A stretch of DNA of 32,000 bases from Psychrobacter sp. HD31 (GCF_051097895.1 NZ_CP142525.1:1920001-1952000); one strand, 5' to 3'. Shown: positions 1,006 through 27,355, numbered from the stretch's first letter. Program-made: numbers and translations. The notes: generated by a model not told the origin, from the sequence alone.

Positions 1006-1093
1006 GTAGGTCGGGTTAGCGTAACCCGACTACGCATAGAGTATCAAATTAAAATATATCGAGTTATGCTCGTTTTCTCACTTATATGACCTT
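1006..1093 (+). repeat. MITE/REP-like element, copy 1 (left hairpin module intact, right end degenerate)
   Basis: Starts GTAGGTCGGGTTAGCGTAACCCGAC, with a 9-bp stem GTCGGGTTA/TAACCCGAC. It then reads AAATTAAAATATATCGAGTTATGCTCGTTTTCTC, colinear with the copies at 1598 and 2182. It begins 4 bp after the upstream stop codon. Confidence 0.7.
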
Positions 1094-11816: not shown

Positions 11817-13478
11817 CTACATGTTAGGGTAGTTAGGGCCACCGCCACCTTCTGGCGTTACCCAAGTAATATTTTGGGCAGGGTCTTTAATATCACAAGT
11901 TTTACAATGTACACAGTTTTGCGAGTTAATGACAAACTCATCGCCATTTTCTGTTTGTGTAATTTCATAAACACCAGCAGGACAGAATAGCTGAGCAGGC
12001 TCACCGTATTTAGGTAAGTTTTGCTTAACAGGGATGCTCGCATCTGCCAATTTTAGATGGCAAGGCTGATCCTCTGCATGGTTGGTGTTAGAGATAAATA
12101 CCGATGATAGTTTATCAAAAGTTAGTTTGCCATCAGGCTTAGGATAATCTGGCTTTTTAGCAGCACTGGCATCTTTTAGCTGAGCAAAGTCTAATGAGGT
12201 ATCATGCAAGGTAATTGGCATTTTACCTTTTAAGATGTTTTGCTCAATAAATACAAAGGCACCACCAATCCACTGACCATAGTTGTGCATGGCTGGTACA
12301 AAGTTACGCGCTTTGTAGTTATCTTCATGCAACCAAGAGTTTTCAAATAACTCAGTATACTCGGTTACTTCGTCGTTTTCTCTACCCTCTTGCACTGCTT
12401 TAAACACGGCTTCGGCAGCTAACATGCCCGACTTCATGCAAGTGTGCGTACCCTTGATTTTAGCAGGGTTTAAGAAGCCTGCATCATCGCCTACTAACAC
12501 ACCGCCATTAAAGGTTAATTTTGGTAATGAGTTTAAGCCACCTTTTGCCAAAGCACGAGCACCGTAAGAAATACGCTTACCACCTTCTAAAATATTTTTT
12601 AGAATTGGGTGAGTCTTAAGACGCTGTGTTTCATCAAATGGAGACATGTAAGGGTTTTTGTATGATAAATCGGTTACCAAACCAAAGCTTACTTGGTTGT
12701 TTTCATCATGGTACATCCACCAACCACCCGTTGCGCCAGTTTCAGTTAATGGCCAACCAGCACCATGCATTACCAAGCCTTCTTGGTGTTTTGCTGGGTC
12801 AATTTCCCAAAGTTCTTTGATGCCAATTGCATAGTGTTGTGGATCACTGTCTTTATCTAGTTCAAACTTATTGATAAGTTGTTTACCTAAATGACCACGG
12901 CAGCCTTCGGCAAAAATAGTGTACTTAGCTAATAACTCATAACCAGGTTCAAAACTTGATTTTGCTTCGCCTTTTGCATCTACACCCATATCGCCAGTTA
13001 AAATGCCTTTAACAGCACCCGCTTCGTTATATAAAACTTCTGATGCTGCAAAACCTGGGAACATCATCACTTCAAGTTCTTCGGCTTGTTCGGCCAACCA
13101 GCGCACAACATTACCTAATGATACAATGTAGTTGCCTTCATTGTGCATAGGTGCTGGCACAACAATATCAGGGAACTTAGTGCCTTTGGTAGGTGAGGTT
13201 AGGTTGTAAACTTGGTCTTCTTTAACTGCAACACGAACGGGTGCGTCTTTTTCTTTCCAGTCTGGGATAAGCTCATTTAAAGCTCTTGGTTCCATTACTG
13301 CACCAGATAAAGTGTGCGCGCCAAATTCTGAGCCTTTTTCTACCACACATACCATAAACTCATCGTTACCGGCTTCAATGGCAAGTTGACGTAGTTTAAT
13401 AGCCGCTGATAAACCAGATGGTCCACCACCAACAATAACAACGTCGAACTCCATCTGTTCACGTTCAATGTTTTCCAT
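11817..13478 (-). CDS. electron-transfer flavoprotein:ubiquinone oxidoreductase (ETF-QO)
   Basis: 553-aa ORF with the N-terminal FAD motif DVVIVGGGPSGLSAA and a C-terminal 4Fe-4S region CPAGVYE...NCVHCKTCDIKDP. AAGGAG SD upstream. Confidence 0.93.
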   Translation of the reverse strand: MENIEREQMEFDVVIVGGGPSGLSAAIKLRQLAIEAGNDEFMVCVVEKGSEFGAHTLSGAVMEPRALNELIPDWKEKDAPVRVAVKEDQVYNLTSPTKGTKFPDIVVPAPMHNEGNYIVSLGNVVRWLAEQAEELEVMMFPGFAASEVLYNEAGAVKGILTGDMGVDAKGEAKSSFEPGYELLAKYTIFAEGCRGHLGKQLINKFELDKDSDPQHYAIGIKELWEIDPAKHQEGLVMHGAGWPLTETGATGGWWMYHDENNQVSFGLVTDLSYKNPYMSPFDETQRLKTHPILKNILEGGKRISYGARALAKGGLNSLPKLTFNGGVLVGDDAGFLNPAKIKGTHTCMKSGMLAAEAVFKAVQEGRENDEVTEYTELFENSWLHEDNYKARNFVPAMHNYGQWIGGAFVFIEQNILKGKMPITLHDTSLDFAQLKDASAAKKPDYPKPDGKLTFDKLSSVFISNTNHAEDQPCHLKLADASIPVKQNLPKYGEPAQLFCPAGVYEITQTENGDEFVINSQNCVHCKTCDIKDPAQNITWVTPEGGGGPNYPNM

Positions 13479-15242: not shown

Positions 15243-16565
15243 TTACCAACCATCTCTTTGCTCAATAATTTGTGAAATACCATCTGGTTGGTTTTGTGGG
15301 GTTGGCATACTAGGCTGATAGCCGTGATTTAAAGGCGTAGTGTTTATAATCTGGTTATAAAACTTTTGCCCCGCACGTCCATTGGCTGGAAATATACCAT
15401 GCTGTTGCTGGTAGTCTTGAATAGCACCACGAGTGGCATCTCCAATAATGCCATCAACTGCACCAATATCATACCCAGCATCTAGCAATGCTTGTTGAAT
15501 TTCTCGTGCTTGTCGACGACCAATACCTGGATCATCCGTTGGCCAAGGTGTTTTGAAACCAATGTTAATGGCATCTTCTTTTTCTATTAAATGCGATAGT
15601 TGAGCAATACCAAGGGCATAGTTTTCTGATGCATTGTAAGAATAAAAAGTATCAAAGTTTTTACCAACTAAAAATGCTGGTCCCTTGCTACCTGCTGGCA
15701 ATAATAAGCCAGCTGAAGTTAAATTGTAGGGTAGTGGACTTCCGTCTGGCAATGTTAAACCTTGGTTACGCCAATGGCTTATTGGTTTTTTATTTCGGCG
15801 GTTGCTTGTTGCCCAATAACCTTCTGGTAGTTTTACCTCATAGCCCCAAGGCTCACCACTGCGATAACCCCGTTTGGCTAAAAAGTTAGCAGTTGATGCC
15901 AATGCGTCTGGCACACTATTAACTAAGTCTTTACGACCATCGCCATTAAAATCGACTGCAAGCTCTAAAAAGGTGCTTGGCATAAACTGTGTTTGCCCAA
16001 AAGCGCCAGCCCATGAGCCCGTCATATCATGTGCATAAATATCGCCATTTTGTACAATTTTTAATGCGTTGGCATACTCACCACGAAAGTAAGACTGACG
16101 GCGGTCAAAACAAGATAGTGTTGCTAATGAACTAAATAGGTCTTTTTTACCAAGTGTTTGCCCAAAGTTAGACTCAACTCCCCAAACGCCAAGTACATCC
16201 TCGGCTTTTACACCATAACGTGCTTCAATACGGCGCAAAGTATCCGCCCATTGGTATTTTGCTGCGATGCCATCTTGTACACGCTCTTCATCTACCAAGG
16301 CAGAAACATAATCCCAAACATCTTTTTGAAACTCGGGTTGATAGTTGAGTGACTGAATAACACTTGGGTCTGGCTTACTTGGGCGGTACTGCTCAAATGT
16401 GCTAGATGATACGCCTTTAAATTTGCTGGTAGACTTTAAATTGGTTAAACATTGTTGAAACTGAGAGTTTGAAAGATAAGGCGCTTCTGGCTTAGCGGCA
16501 TGTGCCAGTGTGCTGGCGGTAACCATAGCCAAAGTAGAAGAAGCAATAAGAGTGAAAAAACGCAT
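15243..16565 (-). CDS. lytic murein transglycosylase (MltB/Slt35-like) with C-terminal peptidoglycan-binding domain
   Basis: 440-aa ORF with a signal peptide and the catalytic-Glu context GVWGVESNFG. The C-terminal PG_binding_1-like repeat is LLDAGYDIGAVDGIIGDATRGAIQDYQ. Confidence 0.9.
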   Translation of the reverse strand: MRFFTLIASSTLAMVTASTLAHAAKPEAPYLSNSQFQQCLTNLKSTSKFKGVSSSTFEQYRPSKPDPSVIQSLNYQPEFQKDVWDYVSALVDEERVQDGIAAKYQWADTLRRIEARYGVKAEDVLGVWGVESNFGQTLGKKDLFSSLATLSCFDRRQSYFRGEYANALKIVQNGDIYAHDMTGSWAGAFGQTQFMPSTFLELAVDFNGDGRKDLVNSVPDALASTANFLAKRGYRSGEPWGYEVKLPEGYWATSNRRNKKPISHWRNQGLTLPDGSPLPYNLTSAGLLLPAGSKGPAFLVGKNFDTFYSYNASENYALGIAQLSHLIEKEDAINIGFKTPWPTDDPGIGRRQAREIQQALLDAGYDIGAVDGIIGDATRGAIQDYQQQHGIFPANGRAGQKFYNQIINTTPLNHGYQPSMPTPQNQPDGISQIIEQRDGW

Positions 16566-16662
16566 GGTAAGCCTTTAATTTTTATTAATTGTGTTTAATG
16601 CTACCTGAATGTTTATAAAAATTAAAGGCAAAAAGTGAGGCTGGTTACACAATCAAACATCT
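16555..16662 (+). repeat. 108-bp direct repeat, copy a (functional 5' end plus upstream region of the transglycosylase gene)
   Basis: Ungapped hand alignment to 17731-17838 gives 95 of 108 identical positions. The repeat covers the first 3-4 codons (minus-strand ATG at 16565-16563) and about 97 bp upstream. Confidence 0.85.
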
Positions 16663-16758
16663 TGGTATGGTTTGCTTGATTTGTAGAGGTTTTTAGAATT
16701 TTTAAATGTTAGCTGTTTTTATGGCGATGTTGGTTTGTATTTTGAATAAACTTTTTAT

Positions 16759-16820
16759 TTTGCATACAAAATACTTGCTTTTATTTGCGTGTTGGAATAA
16801 CATACTTTGCATACAAAATA
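16759..16820 (+). promoter_or_regulatory. candidate operator: 15-bp perfect direct repeat TTTGCATACAAAATA x2
   Basis: Exact copies lie at 16759-16773 and 16806-16820, 47 bp apart. The first sits within the inverted repeat TATTTTG-CATA-CAAAATA. A weaker third unit (TTTGCGTGTTGGAATA) lies between them. Confidence 0.35.
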
Positions 16821-17006
16821 GGTCGTATTATTCAACCATCAACTTAAAACATGAACTTAAAACAATAATCTGAATACTCAATAAAAAGACACTCATTTAA
16901 ATGCCACTCGTGGCAATATCAACATGGTACTCATTGTGAGTGTGTCATCGTTTATCTAGATTATTATAAAAGTGATAAGACAAATTAAAATATACGTTTG
17001 AAATTC

Positions 17007-17044
17007 CCTCTAACTCCTCCTTGAACAAGGGGGAGAATTTTTTT
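17007..17044 (+). repeat. small hairpin repeat (CCCTCTAACTC...CAAGGGGGAG) with T-run, terminator-like
   Basis: CCCTCTAACTCCTCCTTGAACAAGGGGGAG is followed by AATTTTTTT. It shares CCCTCTAACTC and CAAGGGGAG with 22163-22190. No plus-strand gene lies upstream for it to terminate. Confidence 0.5.
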
Positions 17045-17093
17045 GATATATTTTTTTGTTTACTTGCTAATGTTACAAACACAAGGAAATAAA

Positions 17094-17504
17094 ATGAAAC
17101 ACTTGATTAATAACACCATGAATGCAATCACACCTATGGCTATTATGGTGGGGCGTGCATTGCTAGGGCTGTATTTTGTGCTGCCTGGCATACTAAAGTT
17201 TGTGGCTTGGGATATGCATGTCGCACTGATGGAACAACATGGTATGGTATTTATTCCATTCTTTTTAGCATCAGCCGCAATTATTCAAATTATTGCAGGG
17301 TTAGGCATCATTTTTAATCGTTACACTGCTATTTTTTCATTGATTTTGGCAGGCTTGGTTATTGTTATCAACATAAACCTGCATGATTTTTGGAACGTGG
17401 CAACAGAGCAACAAAATTTTGTGAAAAACATGGCAATCTTTGCAGGTTTATTGGTGCTTGCTGGCTTTAGTTGGAAAGAAAAAAATAAAGCGTTATCTTC
17501 ATAA
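17094..17504 (+). CDS. DoxX family inner-membrane protein
   Basis: The ATG at 17094 follows AAGGAAA, while the track start at 17043 is a TTG. The protein is about 136 aa with four hydrophobic helices. Size and pattern (LLGLYFV.PG..KF) are typical of DoxX. Confidence 0.75.
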   Translation: MKHLINNTMNAITPMAIMVGRALLGLYFVLPGILKFVAWDMHVALMEQHGMVFIPFFLASAAIIQIIAGLGIIFNRYTAIFSLILAGLVIVININLHDFWNVATEQQNFVKNMAIFAGLLVLAGFSWKEKNKALSS

Positions 17505-17730
17505 AGTAATACAAAAGTTAGCGTAGCGTGGGTTACATTTTACTAAACGCACGCTACAGCTAGCTTTATATTTATTCTTTTATCATCTTAATCACATTGT
17601 CCAATTGTTCTGCACCTTCCTAGCCAAGCTACTTTGCCAAATTGAGTCTAAAATTTTATTTATCAAATGCATTAGTTCATTTATTTTTGTCAGCCGACAA
17701 ACCATCTGTACTATTAGCTTTTTCATGGTT

Positions 17731-17838
17731 AAAAAACGCATGGTAATCCTTTAGTTTTTATTCATTGGGATTACTGTTACTTGAATGGTTATAAAAATTA
17801 AAAGTAAAAAGTGAGGCTGGTTACATATTCAAACATCT
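17731..17838 (+). repeat. 108-bp direct repeat, copy b (relic 5' end plus upstream region of the transglycosylase gene)
   Basis: 88% identical to 16555-16662. It retains the minus-strand ATG CGT TTT (17741-17733) but then runs into unrelated sequence. This gives a 49-codon ORF at 17592..17741 (-), MRFLTMKKLIVQ..., with no transglycosylase homology. Confidence 0.85.
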
Positions 17839-18012
17839 GCTAAAAAAAGTGTGAGATGTGCTTTTTTATTAACCTTAACCCTAACCTTGAGTTTGACTAT
17901 GGTTATCTTAATGGTTGTGGTAGAGTAAACGAGACCTAAATAGCCAAATACTTTTATCTATTCAGTGGCATTTAAAAATCTAATAATCACAAAACGTGAC
18001 TAGGGAGAGGTG

Positions 18013-18666
18013 ATGAATATTATAGATGTTGCAAAAAATCGATACAGCACTAAATCTTATAACCCAAACAAAAAAATCTCGCCAGAAGACTTTGCCAAAA
18101 TTAAGGAGCTGATTCGGCTTAGCCCCTCTAGCTTAAACTTACAGCCTTGGCAGTTTATAATTGCCGATAACGAAGTCGCTAAAGAACGAGTGCTTAAAGG
18201 GTTCCCTGCTAGGTATGCCTTTAATGCAGAAAAAATAAAAGCGGCCTCGCATGTGGTGATTTACTGTGGTAAAACCAGCATTGATGATGCGCATGTTTGC
18301 AATATTGCGAATGCAGAAGAACAAGATGGTCGATTTAATTTGGCGGACGATAAAAGTCTTCGTCAGGGGCACATTCAGCGTTTTGTCGAGCACCACAGAA
18401 ATGAACTAAAGGACGAGCGTGAATGGAATACCAACCAGTTGTATTTAAACATTGGTATGGTGCTGCTTGGTGTGGCTGCAATGGGTATTGATGCCACCGC
18501 AATGGAAGGGGTAGACTGTGGCGCATTAAATAAAGAGTTTGATTTGGCAAAGCAAGGCTATCAAGCCGTGGCGGTAATGGCGTTTGGTTACCGAGCGGAT
18601 GATGACTTTAATGCCAAATTACCAAAATCACGTTTGCCAACCGAGCAAATTTTTGTCAATGCATAA
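18013..18666 (+). CDS. nfsB: oxygen-insensitive NAD(P)H nitroreductase (NfsB/NfnB family)
   Basis: Colinear with E. coli NfsB as I recall it: RYSTKSY, LSPSSLNLQPWQFI, DGRF, LPKSRLP. The ATG at 18013 follows GGGAGAGG. Confidence 0.85.
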   Translation: MNIIDVAKNRYSTKSYNPNKKISPEDFAKIKELIRLSPSSLNLQPWQFIIADNEVAKERVLKGFPARYAFNAEKIKAASHVVIYCGKTSIDDAHVCNIANAEEQDGRFNLADDKSLRQGHIQRFVEHHRNELKDEREWNTNQLYLNIGMVLLGVAAMGIDATAMEGVDCGALNKEFDLAKQGYQAVAVMAFGYRADDDFNAKLPKSRLPTEQIFVNA

Positions 18667-18688
18667 GTGTGTAGTTGAAGTGCCTGTG

Positions 18689-20083
18689 CTAGCAACATAC
18701 ATTTTCAATATAAGCTCTTAACCACTCTAAAAACTCATCACTGGTGCGTGTGACATTTAATCGGATATGATGTTTAAAACGCCCTGTGGGTGAAAACAAA
18801 TGTCCTGGAGCAACCAACCATTGTTCTTTATGAGCTTGTAAGGCAAGTTCTGCGGTATCGATTATGCCCTCATTACTCAAATCAAGCCACATAAATAGAC
18901 AAGGGTTGCTGTCTGTTGGCGGAGTGAAGCCATGTTTTTTAAGACGTTTAAGTAAGGTATGATGTGCTTTTGCCAATCGAGACTGTATGTTTTTTTCATG
19001 TTTGGCAAAGGCAGGGTCTTGCCAAATGTAAGTAATGGTTCGTTCTGTCATCTCTGGGCAAGTCATATTACTCAGCATTTTTTGGCGTAAGACCGCTTGC
19101 AAATGCTGTTCAGGGCAAACCGTCAAGGCAATCCGCCAATTACCACCAAGCACTTTTGACACCCCATTTAGATAAAACACCCGTTTAAAACCATCTAAGG
19201 TGGCATAGCGCACCATGGTTTTGTCTGGATTAAAGGCACTATACACATCATCTTCCACCACATAACAATCATACTTTTCCATCAATTGCAGTACGGCAAA
19301 TACACTGGTCGGTGTGATGTTGTAAGAGGTTGGGTTGTGTAATGTGGTATTGGTAATATAAAGCTTGGGTTGATAATGCTGAAGAATGGCTTCTAGTTGT
19401 TCTAAATCTAGGCCATCAGCAGTGCGAGTAACGCCAACCACATTCATCCCTAAGTTTTGCAAACTACCAATAATCCAAAACCACGTTGGGTCATCGACGA
19501 CAACCGTATCACCCACCTGACACATGGCTTGAACAATGGTCACAATACCTGCAGACACTCCTGTGGTGGTAATCATCATTGAGGGATGTGCCGAGATACC
19601 CATATCGTCGAGCTGACGAGCAAACTGCTCACGCAATCCATGATAGCCTTGCAAATGCCCATATTCATAGACATAGTCTAGCTCATTGATGACTTTGCGA
19701 CTGGCGGAGAGCATGTGTTTTTTGGGCATCAGCCAATCAGGAGGCAACAAACCACTGCCCGAAGCACGTGTGCGAGGTAAGTCATTAAACAAATGAGTGA
19801 GTAGCCAACCCGTATCTAACACATTATTGGTCATCGCTGGCAGGGCAACCGCATGGGTCTTTTGCATCTCCTTGGGTTCACGCACATAATAGCCTGCCCC
19901 TTGACGGGCATAGATATAACCTTGGGCAACAAGGGTGTCATAGGCTTGGCTAACGGTATAAGGAGATACGCCAAGCTTGTTTGCCATATCTCGTACCGAG
20001 GGTATGCGTGTGTTGGGGTGATAAACCTGCCATTGGATTTTTTCAATGATGTGAGTTTGGACGAGCTGTGTTTTGGTGGTCAT
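18689..20083 (-). CDS. MocR-subfamily GntR transcriptional regulator (wHTH + class I aminotransferase-like domain)
   Basis: 464 aa. The N-terminal GntR wHTH is IPSVRDMANKLGVSPYTVSQAYDTLVAQGYIYARQGAGYYV. It is followed by an aminotransferase-fold domain of about 350 aa with a PLP-lysine context (NGVSKVLGG). Confidence 0.9.
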   Translation of the reverse strand: MTTKTQLVQTHIIEKIQWQVYHPNTRIPSVRDMANKLGVSPYTVSQAYDTLVAQGYIYARQGAGYYVREPKEMQKTHAVALPAMTNNVLDTGWLLTHLFNDLPRTRASGSGLLPPDWLMPKKHMLSASRKVINELDYVYEYGHLQGYHGLREQFARQLDDMGISAHPSMMITTTGVSAGIVTIVQAMCQVGDTVVVDDPTWFWIIGSLQNLGMNVVGVTRTADGLDLEQLEAILQHYQPKLYITNTTLHNPTSYNITPTSVFAVLQLMEKYDCYVVEDDVYSAFNPDKTMVRYATLDGFKRVFYLNGVSKVLGGNWRIALTVCPEQHLQAVLRQKMLSNMTCPEMTERTITYIWQDPAFAKHEKNIQSRLAKAHHTLLKRLKKHGFTPPTDSNPCLFMWLDLSNEGIIDTAELALQAHKEQWLVAPGHLFSPTGRFKHHIRLNVTRTSDEFLEWLRAYIENVCC

Positions 20084-20313
20084 TTAATAATCCCAGTTAG
20101 TGAGCTTTTTTTAGCTTTATCAGGTGTTCATCATAAGTTTGAATATACACTAATCTAGACTTTATAAGATTTAAAAAAATATAGTTCTAAAGTTTGCTAA
20201 CTAAGTTTGTATTCTTTTATGTTAAATCTGTTTTCTATTTTTAAATAGGCAAGCATAGTTCTTATGCACTTTCTATGAGTCAAATAGACAATAAAGTGCA
20301 AAGCTAGCAAGAA

Positions 20314-20378
20314 AACTGTACTGAAAAAATAACCGCAACAGTTTATAAAAAATAGTCCTTAACTGTATCGGTACTGTT
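20314..20378. promoter_or_regulatory. candidate MocR operator / eamA promoter region (AACTGT repeats)
   Basis: AACTGTA occurs at 20314-20320 and 20361-20367. TACTGTT is at 20372-20378 and the inverted AACAGTT at 20337-20343. All lie 60-125 bp upstream of the EamA start. Confidence 0.3.
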
Positions 20379-20437
20379 TTAGTCTACCATGCTATTTTAG
20401 CTACTCAAAATATTCATATACGACTTGAGAAACTCCC

Positions 20438-21292
20438 ATGCCACTCAAACATACTCTTCTTGCCATTCTCGTCACCATTATTTGGGGCGTGAATTTTACC
20501 TTTATTAAATGGGGGCTTGAGAGTTTTGACCCCATCATGCTGACGGCAATGCGGTTTATTTTCACAGCAATACCGCTGATATTTTTTGTTAAACGACCTA
20601 AATTTAATCTGGTATTTATGACCTATGCGGTGGGTACATTTGCCATTCAATATGGATTGTTGTTTTATGCTATGCAACTGGGTGCGTCCGCAGGGTTGTC
20701 TGCATTGATATTGCAAATACAAGTGTTTATCACCTTATTTTTAGCGTATCTGTTATTAGGAGAAAGTATTAACCGCTGGCAGATAATTGGACTAATAATA
20801 GCGGTGCTTGGTCTTGGTTTGATTGGTATCAATGTTGGTGGAGATATGCCATTGCTCGGATTTATCTGTATCTTAATGTCAGCAACTGGCTGGAGCTTTG
20901 GTAACATTGCTTCAAAAAAATTAATGGGAAGTTCACCTCTGTCTTTAGTGGCCTGGGGTGGTCTGATTGTGGCGGTGTTGATGTCTATTCTGTCATGGTT
21001 CTTAGAGCCAAATACTTGGACAGTAAGCACATTTAGCGAGGCAAGCATCAAATCTTGGTTGTCTTTAAGCTTTATTGTGTATGTTTCAACGTTAATGGGA
21101 TTTGTGATGTGGACATTTTTACTACAAAACAACAGTGCTTCTAAAGTGATGCCATTTGCACTGCTTGTGCCTATTATTGGTATGTTTGCTTCGGTTGTTT
21201 TAACTGGTGAAACCATGACATGGTGGAAAGTAGTTGCCATGGTACTGATTATGTTGGGTTTGGGGGTAAGTAGGAAGCCTGTTACTGACTAA
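20438..21292 (+). CDS. EamA/RhaT (DMT superfamily) transporter
   Basis: 284 aa, about 10 predicted TM helices in two EamA-like halves. The gene is divergent from a MocR regulator, a commonly described pairing. Confidence 0.88.
   Translation: MPLKHTLLAILVTIIWGVNFTFIKWGLESFDPIMLTAMRFIFTAIPLIFFVKRPKFNLVFMTYAVGTFAIQYGLLFYAMQLGASAGLSALILQIQVFITLFLAYLLLGESINRWQIIGLIIAVLGLGLIGINVGGDMPLLGFICILMSATGWSFGNIASKKLMGSSPLSLVAWGGLIVAVLMSILSWFLEPNTWTVSTFSEASIKSWLSLSFIVYVSTLMGFVMWTFLLQNNSASKVMPFALLVPIIGMFASVVLTGETMTWWKVVAMVLIMLGLGVSRKPVTD
21155..21282 (+). repeat. 128-bp direct repeat, copy a (functional 3' end of the EamA gene)
   Basis: Ungapped hand alignment to 22857-22984 gives 115 of 128 identical positions. 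The first 34 bp are identical. Confidence 0.85.
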
Positions 21293-21303
21293 TTTTTATA
21301 CAG

Positions 21304-21483
21304 ATGGGAACACAATATCCGATTTTGCTGACCTTCATCAGTCCTATTCATCCACGCTCATACCATGCTCATGTGGATAAATTGGGTCTACAAGTGATTA
21401 AAAACTTTACCTTTAATGATAATAACTATTATGAGCTGGGGTATGATACGAGTGTGTCTATTTTTCAGTTAGGCATAAAATAA
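21304..21483 (+). CDS. 59-codon ORF immediately upstream of the DUF711 gene (uncertain; possibly a gene fragment)
   Basis: ATG at 21304, TAA at 21481-21483, so it falls below the 60-aa cut-off of the ORF track. It translates to MGTQYPILLTFISPIHPRSYHAHVDKLGLQVIKNFTFNDNNYYELGYDTSVSIFQLGIK. There is no convincing SD. Its stop abuts the DUF711 SD (AAGGAA). Confidence 0.25.
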   Translation: MGTQYPILLTFISPIHPRSYHAHVDKLGLQVIKNFTFNDNNYYELGYDTSVSIFQLGIK

Positions 21484-21494
21484 GGAATAGAGTA

Positions 21495-22826
21495 ATGAAC
21501 AATATTATCAATGCAGAAAGCTATAAAAATCAGAAACTATGCCGAGTGCGAGCCGTTACTGCCTTTATCACCTTACCGAAAGACAGTAACCTTTGGTACG
21601 ATATTCTAGCCGAAGGAAAACGCCAATGTGATACCCTTGCTATCGCCTTACAACAAGCAGGTTATCATGTGCAAAGCCTACGCCTTGTGACCAATCCATT
21701 TGGAGAGTACCTCAACACAAGCGACATTAACACTGCTAAAAAAAGTTTGGCACAGATTACCCAACATCTTGACGAACTGAACAAAAATAATGAGTTGCGT
21801 ATCCGTTTTGCAATTGGCGAGGCATGTACCGCTCATGAGATTGCCTTACTACCCGAGCTTATCAAAGATTATGGCGATTTGTGTAATGCTTGTGTCAACG
21901 TGCCGATGAATGAGCATGGGTTTTTACAACATGAGTTGATTGAGCAGTCGGTGCAAGCTATCCAACAGATTGCGGATATCACGCCCAATGGCGAGGGCAA
22001 TTTTAACTTTACCGTCAATTTTAATTGCGATAGCTATATTCCCTATTTTCCTGCCAGTTATCATCGCCCAAAACAAGCAAACGACAAGGCTAATGTAGAT
22101 AAGGCAGTCGTGGTGGGCTTAGAAACGCCTGATTTATTGGTTGATGTGTTGCAGTCAGTATCCCCTCTAACTCTCCCTTATCAAGGGGAGGTCTGTGAAA
22201 ACCAAACATCTAACAACGTTGATAACTGTGCTGATAACCACGCTGAATTTATGCAACAGGCATACACCGCTATGCACACAGCCTTGCAATATCATGTGGA
22301 TAAAGTGGTTGGCGTGATTGACAATACCTCTCTTGAGCAAGGCTGGCAGTTTATTGGCATGGATACCTCCGCCGCACCGTCCAAGGATTGTGCTAGTATG
22401 GTTGAGGTGTATCAACTGCTGGGTGTACCCTATTTTGGGGCAAGTGGTACGGTTGAAGCTTCGGCATTATTAACCAAGGTGTTTAAGTCGGTAAACAATG
22501 TTCAGCAGGTTGGTTTTTCTGGGTTGATGTTGGCGGTTACCGAGGATACAGGACTTGCCAAAGCGACAATCAATCAGCAGTTTGACATCAAAGACTTGCT
22601 GACTTATAGCAGTGTCTGTGGCATTGGATTAGATACGGTGCCGATTGAGGGCGACACCCCAAGTGAAAAAATCTGTGCCATCATTCGAGACACTGGCACC
22701 ATGGCGTTTAGGCTTAATAAACCGCTAACGGTACGACTGTTTCCTGTACCGAAGCTAACCGCAGGCGAGATGACCAGCTTTGACAGTGATGATTTGTGTA
22801 ATTGTGCTGTGTTGGTGGTACCTTAG
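21495..22826 (+). CDS. DUF711 / UPF0210 family protein (PF05167-like), function unknown
   Basis: 443 aa. The C-terminal half (FSGLMLAVTEDTGL...SSVCGIGLDTVPIEGDTPSEKICAIIRDTGTMAF..NKPLTVRLFPVP) is colinear with UPF0210 proteins of Firmicutes as I recall them (LSGAFIPVSEDEGM...CSVGLDMIAIPEDTP...). AAGGAA SD upstream. Confidence 0.8.
   Translation: MNNIINAESYKNQKLCRVRAVTAFITLPKDSNLWYDILAEGKRQCDTLAIALQQAGYHVQSLRLVTNPFGEYLNTSDINTAKKSLAQITQHLDELNKNNELRIRFAIGEACTAHEIALLPELIKDYGDLCNACVNVPMNEHGFLQHELIEQSVQAIQQIADITPNGEGNFNFTVNFNCDSYIPYFPASYHRPKQANDKANVDKAVVVGLETPDLLVDVLQSVSPLTLPYQGEVCENQTSNNVDNCADNHAEFMQQAYTAMHTALQYHVDKVVGVIDNTSLEQGWQFIGMDTSAAPSKDCASMVEVYQLLGVPYFGASGTVEASALLTKVFKSVNNVQQVGFSGLMLAVTEDTGLAKATINQQFDIKDLLTYSSVCGIGLDTVPIEGDTPSEKICAIIRDTGTMAFRLNKPLTVRLFPVPKLTAGEMTSFDSDDLCNCAVLVVP
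22163..22190 (+). repeat. intragenic copy of the small hairpin repeat (CCCTCTAACTC...CAAGGGGAG)
   Basis: CCCTCTAACTCTCCCTTATCAAGGGGAG lies inside the DUF711 CDS and encodes ..SPLTLPYQGEV... It shares an 11-mer plus the stem arm with 17007-17035. Confidence 0.45.
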
Positions 22827-22856
22827 CCTTAATGGGAGGTAATTCTCAAGCCTTTT

Positions 22857-22994
22857 TTTGCACTGCTTGTGCCTATTATTGGTATGTTTGTTTCGATTGT
22901 TTTAACTGGCAAAGCCATAACATGGTAGAAGGTAGTTGCCATGGTTCTGATCATGTTGGGTTTAGTGGTGAGTAGGAAGCCTGTAAAGATATAA
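22857..22994 (+). pseudogene. relic 3' end of the EamA transporter gene (128-bp repeat copy b plus its own stop)
   Basis: In the EamA frame it reads FALLVPIIGMFVSIVLTGKAITW*KVVAMVLIMLGLVVSRKPVKI*. The live gene reads FALLVPIIGMFASVVLTGETMTWWKVVAMVLIMLGLGVSRKPVTD*. There is an internal TAG at 22926-22928 and no upstream coding continuation. Confidence 0.85.
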
Positions 22995-23365
22995 AAAAGC
23001 CCATTTATAGTTAAAGAACTATGTCAAATAGCAAAAAATTGCTCAAACATATCTCCTCCTAAATTGTACTCCTATAACTACCAATACAGTTTGTTAATAT
23101 GGCCTAAGAGTGTATCGGGATTATCAATGGTTTTTTGGCTATGATATAACTCACTTATTAGAAGCCAATATGCTGTAAACCTGAGATTGAAAATCTGAAA
23201 AGATGCTCACACCAATCACTATTTAATGTACTGAGTCAGAATAGTGCTGAGTTTTATCTACTAAGGGCAAAAAGCATGCGTGTTTTTAAATTTGGTAATT
23301 AAATCACAAGAATTTTACGAGTTAATAGGGCATATGTTTGTTGCCTTAATATAATAGGAATAACC

Positions 23366-24058
23366 ATGAAAACGATAGGTATTTTAGGTGGTATGAGCTA
23401 TGAATCAACCGCTAACTATTACACGCTCATCAATAAAAAAGTCAATGAACGACTTGGCAAAAATCACTCAGCAAAACTGCTGATTGCCAGTGTCGATTTT
23501 GAAGAAGTGGTTCAGCAACAAAAATCTGGCGATTGGCAAGCGTCTAGCAATCTGCTTGCTCAACAGGCAAAAAATCTGCAATCATCAGGTGCTGAAGCGG
23601 TGTTATTATCTACTAATACCATGCACAAGGTGGCGGATGGTATACAAAATGCCATTGATGTTCCCTTTTTACACATTGTTGACTGTATGGCAGATGAATT
23701 ACTGGCAAATGGTATCGAAACCGTTGGTTTGTTAGGTACAGCATTTACCATGCAAGATGGTTTTTATCACCAAGTGCTGGAAAACCGAGGAATCAAAGTG
23801 GTTACGCCAGATTTAGAGATTCAGCCAGAAATTCATCGTATTATTTTTGATGAGCTGTGTCATGGTACAGTGTTAGACACTTCTTGTGACGTTTATATCC
23901 AAGCCATTGAGCAACTAAAAGACAACCAAGCTCAAGCCGTGATTTTAGGCTGTACAGAAATCGGTTTAATGATTCACCAAGATAACAGTCCGTTGCCTGT
24001 GTTTGATAGCACCCTTGTGCATGTAGAAAAAGCAGTTGAGTGGATTTTAGGTGAGTAG
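23366..24058 (+). CDS. ygeA: aspartate/glutamate racemase family protein (YgeA-like broad-specificity amino-acid racemase)
   Basis: 230 aa, colinear with E. coli YgeA as I recall it: MKTIGILGGMSYEST, STNTMHKVAD, LGCTEIGL. Confidence 0.85.
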   Translation: MKTIGILGGMSYESTANYYTLINKKVNERLGKNHSAKLLIASVDFEEVVQQQKSGDWQASSNLLAQQAKNLQSSGAEAVLLSTNTMHKVADGIQNAIDVPFLHIVDCMADELLANGIETVGLLGTAFTMQDGFYHQVLENRGIKVVTPDLEIQPEIHRIIFDELCHGTVLDTSCDVYIQAIEQLKDNQAQAVILGCTEIGLMIHQDNSPLPVFDSTLVHVEKAVEWILGE

Positions 24059-25347: not shown

Positions 25348-25428
25348 GGCTATCCTCAAAAAAGCGTCAGTCAGAATTTGTGTAAAATTTCAGCTAGTTT
25401 ATCAGAAATTGCTTTGATAAAGAAAAAT

Positions 25429-25461
25429 AAAAAGACGGCTTACCAATAGCAGCCGTCTTTT
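25429..25461 (-). terminator. rho-independent terminator after the DASS transporter gene
   Basis: Stem AGACGGCT (25433-25440) pairs with AGCCGTCT (25451-25458). On the minus strand it is followed by CTTTTTATTTTT. Confidence 0.65.
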
Positions 25462-25497
25462 AAAATGAGTTAGTAAAGTTTTATGGTTCAAAGGGAG

Positions 25498-26958
25498 TTA
25501 ATAATGACCCAAAAACTTCCACCAAACGAGACCAGCGCTAATCCATACGACTAGGTTAACAACGCTCATGATAAAACCAACACGCCACCATTCACCCAGT
25601 GATGCATACCCTGAGTTAAATATTACAGGCGCAGTGCCGGTTGCATAATGGGTTAGGGTCATCATAATATTGCCAGCTGCTGCCATAATCAATGCAAATA
25701 ACATTGGCGGTGCGCCAAGGCTTAAACCAACGGTATAAAATGCAGCAAACATGGCGGTGATGTGTGCGGTGGTACTGGCAAAAAAGTAATGCACATACAT
25801 ATACACCAAGGTCAAAATAACCATTGCCATGGTTGTGCTAACACCCGTAGCAGCAATAGCTGCCTGAATATTGCCAGAAAACCACTCAATAAGCCCAAGT
25901 TTATTTAAAAAGCCTGCCATCATAATTAATGCAGAAAACCAAACGATGGTATCCCATGCAGAACGTTCTTTAAGAATGTCTTCCCAACTTAGAACACCTG
26001 TAATAAGTAAAGCAGATAAGCCGATTAATGCGGTGGTTGCAGAGTGCAATTTTAAAGCACTAATGCCTGTTAACATCTCTGGAATGTTTGCCCAAAAAAG
26101 CAACATTAAGGTAAAAATTGCCAGCATGATTTTTTCATTTTTAGAGATTCGCCCCATTTTTTTTAGATTATTGGTAGCAAAGGTTTTTGCATCTGGGGTT
26201 TCTTTAATTTCTGGTTTTGCCAGCAGATAGATAACCAAAGGCATTAGTAAAATACATAGCATACCTGGGATAAACATGGAGACAGCCCATGTTGTCCAAG
26301 ACAGTTGGATTTCACTACCTGTTGCTTTATTGATTAAATCTACAACCAACGGGTTAGGTGCGGTTGCGGTAATAAACATCCCAGAAGTGATGGGGTTTGA
26401 ATGATAATTAACCAAAGCGAGGTATTTACCAATTTTGCTTTGTGTGCCATTTTCTGGTGTTGAGTCAAAGTTATGGGCAATTGACTTCATAATTGGGTGG
26501 ATGATACCACCACCACGTGCGGTGTTTGATGGCGTAATTGGTGCAATCATTAACTCAGAGATGGCAAGTGAGTACCCAATCCCCAAGCTTTTTTTGCCAA
26601 ATAGTGCAATAAAATAATAGGCAATGCGGTTACCTAATCCAGTTTTTATCAAACCACGAGAAATCATGATGGCAATACCAATTAACCAAATCAAAGGACT
26701 CGAAAAGCTAGAAAGTACGTCGGTTATGGCACCTTTTGGGCTGTCGTTAGTGACACCAGTCACAGCAACTAAAGTCATAGCGATGATGGCAATTGCCCCA
26801 ATTGGTAAAGCTTTGCCAATAATGGCCGCAATGGTGGCAATAAAGATGGCAAGCAGATGCCATGCATTTGGGTCAACGCCCACAGGTACAGGGATAATAA
26901 ACCAAATGAGTAAACCGATAATCATGGATATAATTGTTGGGATAAGCTTAAACGGCAT
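25498..26958 (-). CDS. DASS/SLC13-type anion (di/tricarboxylate) transporter
   Basis: 486 aa and highly hydrophobic, with more than 12 TM segments. Two-repeat architecture with the hairpin-type motifs PSNTARGG and HYATGTAP, typical of the CitT/2-oxoglutarate-malate translocator-like anion permeases. A perfect AGGAGG SD lies upstream. Confidence 0.82.
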   Translation of the reverse strand: MPFKLIPTIISMIIGLLIWFIIPVPVGVDPNAWHLLAIFIATIAAIIGKALPIGAIAIIAMTLVAVTGVTNDSPKGAITDVLSSFSSPLIWLIGIAIMISRGLIKTGLGNRIAYYFIALFGKKSLGIGYSLAISELMIAPITPSNTARGGGIIHPIMKSIAHNFDSTPENGTQSKIGKYLALVNYHSNPITSGMFITATAPNPLVVDLINKATGSEIQLSWTTWAVSMFIPGMLCILLMPLVIYLLAKPEIKETPDAKTFATNNLKKMGRISKNEKIMLAIFTLMLLFWANIPEMLTGISALKLHSATTALIGLSALLITGVLSWEDILKERSAWDTIVWFSALIMMAGFLNKLGLIEWFSGNIQAAIAATGVSTTMAMVILTLVYMYVHYFFASTTAHITAMFAAFYTVGLSLGAPPMLFALIMAAAGNIMMTLTHYATGTAPVIFNSGYASLGEWWRVGFIMSVVNLVVWISAGLVWWKFLGHY

Positions 26959-27355
26959 ATTAACCTCCTATTTATTAATATTGAGTGTTATTGATAGGGT
27001 AATAGTTGTAAGTATCTGGTTAAGGGTTAAATAGTATTAATATCAGCTGAGTTATTATTTTGGCTGGTTAATTAGTTGACGATTAATAAGATACCTAAGC
27101 TATCTTTGCTATATTTTTGTTATCTTTTTTGGTTTTTAATGATTTTTATTTTTGGTTTTATTATAGAACTGTGGCAGGGATAGTCAACTGTTAAAAGTAC
27201 AATGAGACGGGAAAAATTATACAATTGTTTAACAAGGACAATGTGAGGTGTTTTGTATTTATTTTAGCTGTTTTGTCAACAGCCAATGTGATGGCACTGC
27301 TTATGAACAGACCATCAACAAAGGCAATGTAATACAAAGGGCAACTAATTTATGG

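What the first reader, a model, noticed from the sequence alone, without database searches (positions are those of the whole stretch)
16555..22994. Two gene-end-restoring insertions with identical polarity and architecture within 6.4 kb
Both events share one layout: anchor gene body, then a live repeat copy, a single-gene cargo of 1.1-1.6 kb, and a relic repeat copy. Repeat lengths are similar (108 and 128 bp). Divergence is similar (about 88% and 90% identity). In each, the longest identical block sits at or next to the anchor-gene edge (16 and 34 bp). Each cargo lies on the same side (to the right, in plus-strand coordinates) of its anchor gene. One event restores a 5' end and the other a 3' end. 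Seeing the same footprint twice in a short interval points to a recurrent mechanism rather than a one-off accident. Candidates are a trans-acting recombinase encoded elsewhere, or repeated one-sided-homology capture during natural transformation. Weak supporting evidence comes from hand GC counts on single 60-nt lines. These gave 31/60 in the MocR gene (19561-19620) and 30/60 and 27/60 in DUF711 (22501-22560, 21601-21660). By comparison ETF-QO gave 25/60 (12001-12060) and EamA 24/60 (20761-20820). These samples are far too small to be conclusive.
Basis: inference. Interest (0 to 1): 0.7.

Follow-up and report, generated by a model that had tools for sequence, protein, structure and literature searches.

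The report
Two old duplication-flanked gene insertions
Two small blocks of foreign genes in a Psychrobacter chromosome are each bracketed by a diverged ~110-130 bp duplication of the host's own sequence; this looks like the scar of sloppy recombination during DNA uptake, not the work of a dedicated mobile element, so it is instructive but fairly ordinary.

Summary
Both repeat pairs are real: 16552-16662 vs 17728-17838 (87%) and 21155-21282 vs 22857-22984 (90%). The window is Psychrobacter sp. HD31. The closest syntenic relative, MAG L081, has one copy of each repeat and neither cargo. It aligns with the upstream copy's left flank, with both copies, and with the downstream copy's right flank. 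So each event is an insertion between two copies of native sequence. Both copies are host-type, and the downstream "relic" is the original gene end in its original context.

The cargo edges are arbitrary. Each cargo starts with a 5'-truncated gene (an OsmC remnant before DoxX, a "p211" remnant before DUF711) that is full-length beside the same gene in sister lineages. One junction sits at an 8-nt microhomology. The four junctions share no motif, and there are no terminal inverted repeats, recombinase or tRNA.

The best reading is duplication-insertion scars from illegitimate or one-sided-homology recombination, plausibly during natural transformation, followed by small deletions. The footprint is rare: none elsewhere in about 1.7 Mb of Psychrobacter loci. 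Two things stay unresolved. EamA is a mosaic whose breakpoint coincides with the repeat edge, and L081 may have lost the cargos secondarily. Interest is modest.

The parts
15243..16565 (-). Anchor gene 1: lytic murein transglycosylase (MltB-like; SLT_2 + PG_binding_1), 91% aa identical to L081
   Evidence: Pfam; synteny
16552..16662 (.). R1 upstream ('live') copy: first 14 nt of the MltB gene, RBS and 97 nt of upstream region; 89% identical to the single copy in L081
16663..17727 (+). Cargo 1 (1065 nt, GC 0.33): unknown 5' part with two ATTTTGCATACAAAAT palindromes, OsmC 3' remnant, hairpin, DoxX, and a 223-nt tail; absent from L081 and from 80 Psychrobacter MltB loci
16880..16967 (+). Remnant of the OsmC C-terminus (DTHLNATRGNINMVLIVSVS vs OsmC ...HTVCPYSNATRGNIEVEIKVSVS*); full OsmC precedes DoxX in sister lineage L093
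17094..17504 (+). DoxX family membrane protein gene (136 aa); 100% in L088/L089, 70-78% in sister-lineage Logan contigs, 67% in Phocoenobacter
17728..17838 (.). R1 downstream ('relic') copy, in the original intergenic context: its ATG lies 268 nt from the nitroreductase start, against 265 nt in L081, and its right flank aligns with L081
18010..18666 (+). Nitroreductase gene (85% aa to L081); in sister lineage L094 its ortholog lies directly upstream of DoxX
18689..20083 (-). MocR/GntR-aminotransferase regulator (94% aa to L081), transcribed divergently from EamA
20438..21292 (+). Anchor gene 2: EamA transporter. It is a mosaic: the body (codons 1-239) is equidistant from L081/L083/L084, the tail groups with L081, and the last 3 codons plus stop come from the junction with p211
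21155..21282 (+). R2 upstream ('live') copy: EamA codons ~240-281
21283..22856 (+). Cargo 2 (1574 nt): p211 3' remnant, DUF711 and 30 nt; absent from L081
21293..21483 (+). Remnant (last ~55-60 codons; orf59 21304-21483) of a 211-aa gene ('p211', no Pfam) that is full-length between EamA and DUF711 in sister lineages (L083, L084, L086). The junction with EamA is at microhomology AAGCCTGT/AAGTCTGT
21495..22826 (+). DUF711/UPF0210 gene (443 aa), GC3 0.455; 98% in L085, 73% in L086, then ~65% in Neisseriaceae/Pasteurellaceae
22857..22997 (+). R2 downstream ('relic') copy plus the native EamA end (…KPVKI* as in L081). It has 8 lineage-specific changes, 5 of them non-synonymous including TGG>TAG, so it is decaying
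23366..24058 (+). Asp/Glu racemase gene; directly follows EamA in L081, which defines the empty site

Best explanation
Each event is a 'duplication-insertion' scar. A piece of DNA from another lineage (an osmC-doxX block and a p211-DUF711 block) became joined into the chromosome between two copies of a short stretch of the host's own sequence, i.e. at the join point of a ~110-140 bp tandem duplication. This happened by illegitimate (microhomology) or one-sided-homology recombination, most plausibly while transforming DNA bridged two sister chromosomes. No element-encoded or site-specific enzyme is involved. The copy still attached to the gene body stayed functional, and the other copy stayed in its old context. 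For EamA that copy decays as a pseudo-end; for the MltB/nitroreductase intergenic region it still sits in front of the nitroreductase gene. Later small deletions removed most of osmC and of p211; the p211 deletion also replaced the last three EamA codons. The similar repeat lengths reflect which duplications survive: repeats much longer than ~200 bp are quickly lost by RecA recombination, and shorter ones are not noticed. Shown: the architecture, the host origin of both copies, the empty sites in L081, the truncated cargo genes, the microhomology at one junction, and the absence of recombinase signatures. Inferred: transformation as the route, the sister-chromosome bridging step, and the order of events.
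For: L081 has one copy of each repeat and no cargo. It aligns with the live copy's left flank, with both copies, and with the relic's right flank. The two R2 copies share 14 differences from L081, with 3 changes private to the live copy and 8 to the relic, so both are host-type sisters. The relic keeps the native ...KPVKI* end and downstream sequence. Relic-specific changes are 5 non-synonymous (one nonsense) to 3 synonymous, as expected for decay (read from the alignment). Cargo edges are arbitrary: an OsmC remnant in cargo 1 and a p211 remnant in cargo 2, each full-length next to the same cargo gene in sister lineages L093 and L083/L084/L086. The EamA/p211 junction lies at microhomology AAGCCTGT/AAGTCTGT. 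The four junctions share no motif and there are no terminal inverted repeats; there are no tRNAs and no Rfam element. The cargo genes are foreign to the genus: DoxX is absent from 80 Psychrobacter MltB loci, and DUF711's best named homologues are Neisseriaceae/Pasteurellaceae. The genome shows other allele replacements (EamA body, ETF-QO in L081), which fits frequent recombination with diverged DNA. Engineered Dup-Ins have exactly this architecture, are thought to form by bridging sister chromosomes, and are stable at 100-210 bp (PMC5389514). Natural transformation creates tandem duplications by interchromatid integration (PMC3784515).
Against: No experiment and no second genome shows the event happening. 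Only one junction (J2L) can be compared with a donor-like sequence. p211-DUF711 lies directly after EamA in sister lineages too (L083, L084), which is an odd coincidence for a random illegitimate insertion and suggests homology guided the event. The EamA mosaic breakpoint coincides with the left edge of R2, which a simple one-step insertion does not explain. The R1 distances are star-like (live-relic 12.6%, live-L081 10.8%, relic-L081 13.5%). L081 looks live-like on the left and relic-like on the right of both repeats (p~0.06 each), so L081's empty sites may be secondary and the polarity 'gain in HD31' is not secure. Two such rare events 4.5 kb apart are not accounted for by chance alone.
Confidence: 0.5

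Rival explanations
1. Gene-end displacement by homology-facilitated illegitimate recombination (HFIR). Donor DNA from a related strain that already carried anchor gene plus cargo paired through the anchor gene; its other end joined illegitimately inside the recipient's copy of the same gene end. One repeat copy is then donor-derived and the other is the displaced recipient end, as proposed for rhs and T6SS 'orphan' ends. A variant: a foreign EamA-p211-DUF711 module displaced the native EamA, and the native tail was later copied back onto it.
For: EamA followed by p211(-DUF711) is the native order in sister lineages L083/L084/L086, so homology in EamA could have guided the import. The EamA body is phylogenetically discordant with its tail, and the switch coincides with the R2 edge. 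A 34-nt identical block lies at that edge. The same polarity in both events fits one homologous and one illegitimate end. A published model exists (PMC5361080).
Against: The two R2 copies are closer to each other (90%) than to any sampled lineage and share 14 states against L081, so a donor would have to be an unsampled close relative. The known sister alleles are ~70% identical in the tail. Classical HFIR deletes recipient DNA and does not duplicate it. The variant needs two rare events. Event 1 has no discordant block next to R1.
Confidence: 0.25
2. Local tandem duplication followed by reciprocal deletions, with no new import at the time the repeats formed. The cargo genes were already neighbours (nitroreductase-OsmC-DoxX; EamA-p211-DUF711). 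A kilobase-scale tandem duplication was then trimmed by deletions, leaving one intact copy of each gene, truncated remnants and the short repeat. L081 lost the cargos later by recombination between the repeats.
For: Sister lineages have nitroreductase upstream of (OsmC-)DoxX (L093, L094), whereas HD31 has the OsmC remnant and DoxX upstream of the nitroreductase gene, a reordering that duplication plus deletion produces naturally. Truncated OsmC and p211 show that deletions occurred. L081's single copies look like live/relic recombinants. The R1 distances are star-like.
Against: It needs at least three events per locus, plus independent precise loss of osmC-doxX downstream of the nitroreductase gene in both HD31 and L081. 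No remnants of second copies were found in 22985-23365 or after the nitroreductase gene. The ordering statistic is weak (p~0.06 each).
Confidence: 0.15
3. Site-specific integration by a recombinase encoded elsewhere: each cargo is a small integrase-less cassette whose attachment site mimics a gene end, so that attL/attR form the repeats and the gene is restored.
For: Same polarity and similar repeat length; both repeats overlap gene ends; the two events are clustered.
Against: No shared core or motif among the four junctions and no inverted repeats. No integrase, tRNA or tmRNA in 32 kb. Cargo edges truncate genes. Both repeat copies are host-type over their whole length instead of sharing a short identical core. 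The EamA end is not restored to its native sequence. The cargo genes sit in unrelated contexts elsewhere (L090, L092).
Confidence: 0.04

Closest known systems
Duplication-insertion ('Dup-In') structures made by recombineering, and tandem duplications with an insert at the join point (Nasvall et al., PMC5389514)
   Same: Same architecture: left flank, copy of target, inserted DNA, second copy of target, right flank. One intact and one truncated gene copy. Proposed formation by bridging two sister chromosomes. Stable when the duplication is only 100-210 bp.
   Different: Dup-Ins are engineered with 40-nt designed homologies and lambda Red. Here the joins are natural, at most microhomologous, old (10-13% diverged) and further modified by deletions.
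Transformation-induced merodiploidy in Streptococcus pneumoniae (Johnston et al., PMC3784515)
   Same: Incoming single-stranded DNA integrates across sister chromatids and creates a tandem duplication. The host is presumably a naturally transformable bacterium (natural competence in Psychrobacter is from my own knowledge and was not tested here).
   Different: In the pneumococcal case the pairing uses long pre-existing repeats (IS copies) and duplicates 100 kb or more. Here the duplicated stretch is ~0.1 kb, foreign DNA sits at the junction, and no pre-existing repeat is evident.
Homology-facilitated illegitimate recombination and 'C-terminal displacement' of rhs/T6SS effector ends (de Vries & Wackernagel 2002; Jackson et al. 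2009; Kirchberger et al., PMC5361080)
   Same: A new gene end plus cargo lies upstream and an orphaned old gene end downstream, with a short stretch of shared sequence. No recombinase. Linked to natural transformation.
   Different: In those systems the new and old ends differ (polymorphic toxins) and the shared segment is the conserved core. Here the two ends are the same host-type sequence, one event concerns a 5' end plus promoter region, and the genes are not toxin systems.
Minimal mobile elements of Neisseria (Saunders & Snyder 2002; see PMC3787668, PMC1797815)
   Same: Alternative gene cassettes lie between conserved flanking genes in a transformable bacterium, are exchanged without any mobility gene, and the cargo families are shared with Neisseriaceae/Pasteurellaceae.
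   Different: MMEs are exchanged by two homologous crossovers in the flanks and leave no duplication. Here each cassette is bracketed by a duplicated host segment.
Integrase-mediated genomic islands at gene 3' ends (tRNA/tmRNA/protein-gene att sites)
   Same: Direct repeats overlap a gene end and flank inserted DNA, and the gene remains intact.
   Different: No integrase, no conserved core, the repeats are host-type along their full length, and the cargo ends cut genes.

Membership tests
Integrase-mediated integrative element / genomic island | Tyrosine or serine recombinase gene in or next to the insert | tested here: not met
   Pfam on all major ORFs from 13.8 to 27 kb found no recombinase. 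Each cargo holds only DoxX or DUF711 plus a gene remnant.
Integrase-mediated integrative element / genomic island | attL/attR share a short identical core, and the element-borne copy differs from the host copy outside it | tested here: not met
   Similarity runs over the whole 111/128 nt with scattered differences. Both copies are host-type relative to L081.
Integrase-mediated integrative element / genomic island | Defined element ends, the same wherever the element occurs | tested here: not met
   The cargo left ends cut through osmC and p211. DoxX and DUF711 homologues sit in unrelated contexts (L090, L092, L086).
Transposon / insertion sequence | Terminal inverted repeats and a short (2-14 bp) target-site duplication; transposase | tested here: not met
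   TIR scores are no better than shuffles. The duplications are 111 and 128 nt. No transposase.
Duplication-insertion (tandem duplication with inserted DNA at the join) | Both repeat copies derive from the same host sequence; outer flanks are contiguous in an empty-site relative | tested here: met
   L081 alignments and site polarisation: 14 shared differences in R2, and the flanks are collinear with L081.
Duplication-insertion (tandem duplication with inserted DNA at the join) | Insert joined by illegitimate or microhomology junctions | tested here: inconclusive
   Microhomology AAGYCTGT at the EamA/p211 junction, but that junction may be a later deletion. The other three junctions lack a donor sequence for comparison.
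HFIR / gene-end displacement | One copy of the shared segment is donor-derived and continuous with donor DNA | tested here: inconclusive
   The EamA body is discordant and the switch lies at the R2 edge, but the tail copies are sisters at 90% and no donor-type lineage has been sampled.
HFIR / gene-end displacement | Host is naturally transformable | not testable with these tools
   Competence of Psychrobacter is known from the literature (my own knowledge); competence of strain HD31 is unknown.
Neisseria-type minimal mobile element | Alternative cassettes between the same conserved flanking genes in different strains, with no flanking duplication | tested here: not met
   Presence/absence between conserved flanks is seen (HD31 vs L081), but each cassette is bracketed by a duplication.

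The most novel reading that the evidence does not exclude
The two events reflect a recurrent, directed process in this lineage. Examples would be a host- or prophage-encoded single-strand annealing/recombination system, or a replication-fork-linked pathway, that inserts transformed DNA at gene boundaries while duplicating ~110-130 bp, so that flanking genes and promoters stay intact. That would be a natural 'scarless capture' route for foreign genes, and it would also explain the coincidence of the EamA mosaic breakpoint with the repeat edge.
Probability: 0.05. Interest if true: 0.7.

Novelty: new member of a known kind. Interest (0 to 1): 0.3.

Why it matters
If the reading is right, these are two well-preserved natural examples of how a transformable, genome-reduced bacterium captures foreign genes without any mobile-element machinery and without breaking the neighbouring genes. 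A short duplication of host sequence keeps the gene end, or the promoter region, intact on both sides of the insert. They also show that a downstream 'relic' can be the original gene end and not a leftover brought by the insert, which matters when such footprints are used to infer integration sites. The practical value is as a search pattern for illegitimate-recombination imports in Moraxellaceae genomes. It does not reveal a new system.

Tried and rejected
1. Eighty GTDB Psychrobacter species loci centred on MltB proved too distant: synteny holds only on MltB's 3' side, and they give no outgroup for R1.
2. Exact-protein look-ups of the window's own EamA and MltB found nothing on record.
3. 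The metagenome scan with MocR found only the L081 contig again (L101) plus 58-59% relatives.
4. The first DoxX mapping used a wrong frame (17095 instead of 17094). It was redone.
5. A candidate third instance, D3 (1043/2178), turned out to be a REP/MITE-like intergenic element with three copies.
6. The third indel against L081 (DASS symporter, 25498-26958) has no flanking repeats.
7. The other footprint candidates are not gene-end duplications: L076 is an intergenic repeat and L079 is a pair of tandem paralogues.
8. The test for shared junction motifs and terminal inverted repeats was negative.
9. The 22 nt before relic R2 resemble the end of R2 (17/22) but this is not significant (p=0.15).
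10. Rfam gave no credible RNA element in or near the repeats.
11. Promoter and terminator scans were no better than shuffles, so the 'split divergent promoter' idea for R1 could not be tested.
12. Strain-level substitution densities (L085, L088, L089) are too sparse to show relaxed constraint on the relics.
13. tblastx found no gene remnants in 22985-23365 or in the MocR-EamA spacer.

Full report
**Observation**

The two repeat pairs are real and are the two longest direct repeats in the window.
- R1 is 16552-16662 vs 17728-17838 (111 nt, 87%).
- R2 is 21155-21282 vs 22857-22984 (128 nt, 90%).

Pfam identifies the surrounding genes:
- SLT_2/PG_binding lytic transglycosylase ("MltB"), 15243-16565, minus strand
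- DoxX, 17094-17504
- nitroreductase, 18010-18666
- MocR-type regulator, 18689-20083, minus strand
- EamA transporter, 20438-21292
- DUF711, 21495-22826
- Asp/Glu racemase, 23366-24058

R1 holds the first 14 nt of MltB plus 97 nt upstream. R2 holds EamA codons ~240-281. The downstream R2 copy has an in-frame TAG.

**Source and relatives**

The EamA protein is 100% identical to one from Psychrobacter sp. HD31, on a 2.17-Mb contig.

Eighty Psychrobacter species share only the ETF-QO, racemase, orf107 and MltB side of the locus.

The useful relative is a MAG contig (L081 = L082 = L101). Its proteins are 83-94% identical to the window's. Its gene order is ETF-QO, racemase, orf107, MltB(-), nitroreductase, MocR(-), EamA313, EamA284, racemase, aminotransferase, GlnD. 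It has neither DoxX nor DUF711.

Independent Logan assemblies of close strains (L088/L089 for event 1, L085 for event 2; 97-99.7% nt identity) carry the same structures with both repeat copies. The structures are therefore not assembly artefacts, and they are fixed at species level.

**Anatomy against the empty sites**

In both events L081 aligns with the live copy's left flank, with both repeat copies, and with the relic's right flank.
- The relic R1 start codon lies 268 nt from the nitroreductase start, against 265 nt in L081.
- The relic R2 keeps the native end ...KPVKI* seen in L081, while the live EamA ends ...KPVTD*.

Site polarisation against L081:

| Repeat | Live-specific | Relic-specific | Shared by both copies against L081 |
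|---|---|---|---|
| R2 | 3 | 8 | 14 |
| R1 | 5 | 8 | 6 |

Both copies are therefore host-type sisters, not a host copy plus a distant donor copy. The relic R2 changes are 5 non-synonymous (one nonsense) and 3 synonymous, and they hit residues conserved across the family. That is decay.

**Cargo edges are arbitrary**

- orf59 (21304-21483) is the last ~55 codons of a 211-aa gene ("p211", no Pfam). That gene precedes DUF711 in L086. Its N-terminus directly follows EamA in L083 and L084.
- The EamA/p211 junction lies at microhomology AAGCCTGT/AAGTCTGT. A ~0.5-kb deletion there would explain both the truncated p211 and the altered EamA tail.
- Cargo 1 holds a remnant of the OsmC C-terminus (…NATRGNI…VSVS, 16880-16967). 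Full OsmC precedes DoxX in L093. In L094 DoxX directly follows a nitroreductase ortholog.
- The four junctions share no motif and the cargos have no terminal inverted repeats.
- The region has no recombinase, tRNA or Rfam element.
- DoxX and DUF711 are foreign to typical Psychrobacter. DoxX is absent from the 80 loci. The nearest named homologues are Phocoenobacter and Shewanella for DoxX, and Alysiella, Kingella, Neisseria and Pasteurellaceae for DUF711.
- Composition gives modest support: DUF711 GC3 is 0.455 against 0.30-0.35 for core genes, but nitroreductase, MocR and EamA are also 0.40-0.43.

**Rarity**

A self-blast scan of 1.74 Mb of loci found no other gene-end duplication. L076 is an intergenic repeat and L079 a pair of tandem paralogues. 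A third indel against L081, a DASS symporter at 25498-26958, has no flanking repeats. Two such footprints 4.5 kb apart is therefore unusual, but nothing shows a general mechanism.

**Complications**

1. EamA is a mosaic.
 - The body is equidistant from L081, L083 and L084 (70-77% aa). Quartet sites support (HD31,L084)|(L081,L083) by 40 to 17 to 14.
 - The tail, which is R2, groups with L081 (84% nt against 67-72% for the other pairs; exclusive sharing 14:2:4 with L081, L083 and L084; Fisher p = 5e-4).
 - The switch falls between 21146 and 21213, at the R2 edge.
 - That block is only one of about eight equally conserved blocks, so a chance coincidence has odds of roughly 1 in 8-10.
 - Which genome carries the replaced body is open. 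L081 also has a discordant ETF-QO.
2. L081's single copies look live-like on the left and relic-like on the right (p = 0.06 and 0.067), and the R1 distances are star-like. L081 may therefore have lost the cargos by recombination between the repeats, and the duplications may predate the HD31/L081 split. No outgroup is available.

**Mechanism**

The architecture matches a duplication-insertion: DNA sitting at the join of a short tandem duplication.
- Engineered Dup-Ins have this layout. They are thought to arise by bridging sister chromosomes, and they are stable at 100-210 bp while longer ones segregate by RecA recombination (PMC5389514). That offers a survivorship explanation for the similar repeat lengths.
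- Natural transformation can create duplications by interchromatid integration (PMC3784515).
- HFIR-type displacement of gene ends is the published model for orphaned rhs/T6SS ends (PMC5361080).

I rate the explanations as follows:
- Illegitimate or one-sided-homology duplication-insertion with later microhomology deletions: most likely (0.5).
- HFIR import from an unsampled close relative: 0.25.
- Local tandem duplication with reciprocal deletions: 0.15.
- A site-specific recombinase: about 0.04.

**Verdict**

The "restoring cargo" idea and a dedicated recombinase are not supported. This is a new example of a known kind of recombination scar, with modest interest.

Noticed in passing
window 1008-1092, 1600-1690, 2177-2230: Three copies of a palindrome-bearing intergenic repeat (GTAGGTCGGGTTAGCG...TAACCCGAC ... 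CGAGTTATGCTCG ... ACGACCTAC), REP/MITE-like, flanking two small lipoprotein-like ORFs (1181-1564 +, 1700-2158 -).
   Followed up: partly
window 20438-21154 vs 21155-21282: The EamA gene is a recombinant mosaic. The body is equidistant from three lineages, although neighbouring genes are 83-94% identical to L081. The tail is L081-like, and the breakpoint coincides with the left edge of repeat R2.
   Followed up: yes
window 11820-13469 (ETF-QO) vs L081 1613-3274: ETF-QO of HD31 is 77% identical to Psychrobacter spp. but only 69% to L081, whose copy is 65-66% to Psychrobacter. This looks like an allele replacement in the L081 lineage, and it means L081 is not a clean reference.
   Followed up: partly
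window 16757-16772 and ~16805-16820: Two copies of the perfect palindrome ATTTTGCATACAAAAT, 47 nt apart, in the unknown 5' part of cargo 1 upstream of the OsmC remnant and DoxX. They may be an operator pair for an OhrR/MarR-type regulator.
   Followed up: no
window 17014-17035: Strong terminator-like hairpin (CTCCTCCTTGAACAAGGGGGAG + T-run) between the OsmC remnant and DoxX, inside a ~100-nt stretch absent from sister lineage L093.
   Followed up: no
window 25348-27362: A third indel relative to L081: a DASS/Na-sulfate symporter gene (25498-26958, minus) between the aminotransferase and GlnD, with no long flanking repeats.
   Followed up: partly
window 23013-23350: About 340 nt between the relic R2 and the racemase gene have no counterpart in L081 (whose spacer is 105 nt) and no detectable gene remnant.
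   Followed up: partly
window 20084-20437; L081 9001-9942: L081 (and L083) carry a second EamA paralogue (313/327 aa) upstream of EamA284 that HD31 (and L084) lack. HD31's spacer resembles the sequence upstream of EamA in L084 (80% over 70 nt).
   Followed up: partly
L086 32-667; L083 4066-; L084 3626-; window 21293-21483: A conserved 211-aa protein with no Pfam match (N-terminus ...YRKA.L.DIDGI.ALQKLYHVDT...DKPDGFVTTL) is the regular upstream partner of this DUF711 clade. Its function is unknown and it is possibly acetyltransferase-like.
   Followed up: no
window 17591-17741 (minus strand): The relic R1 start codon opens a 49-codon chimeric ORF (MRFLTMKKLIVQMV...) that runs antisense towards the DoxX 3' end. 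If the relic promoter still fires, it would give antisense transcription.
   Followed up: no
window 22835-22856: The 22 nt immediately left of relic R2 resemble the last 22 nt of R2 (17/22). This could be a trace of an older or partial copy, but it is not significant by shuffling (p=0.15).
   Followed up: yes
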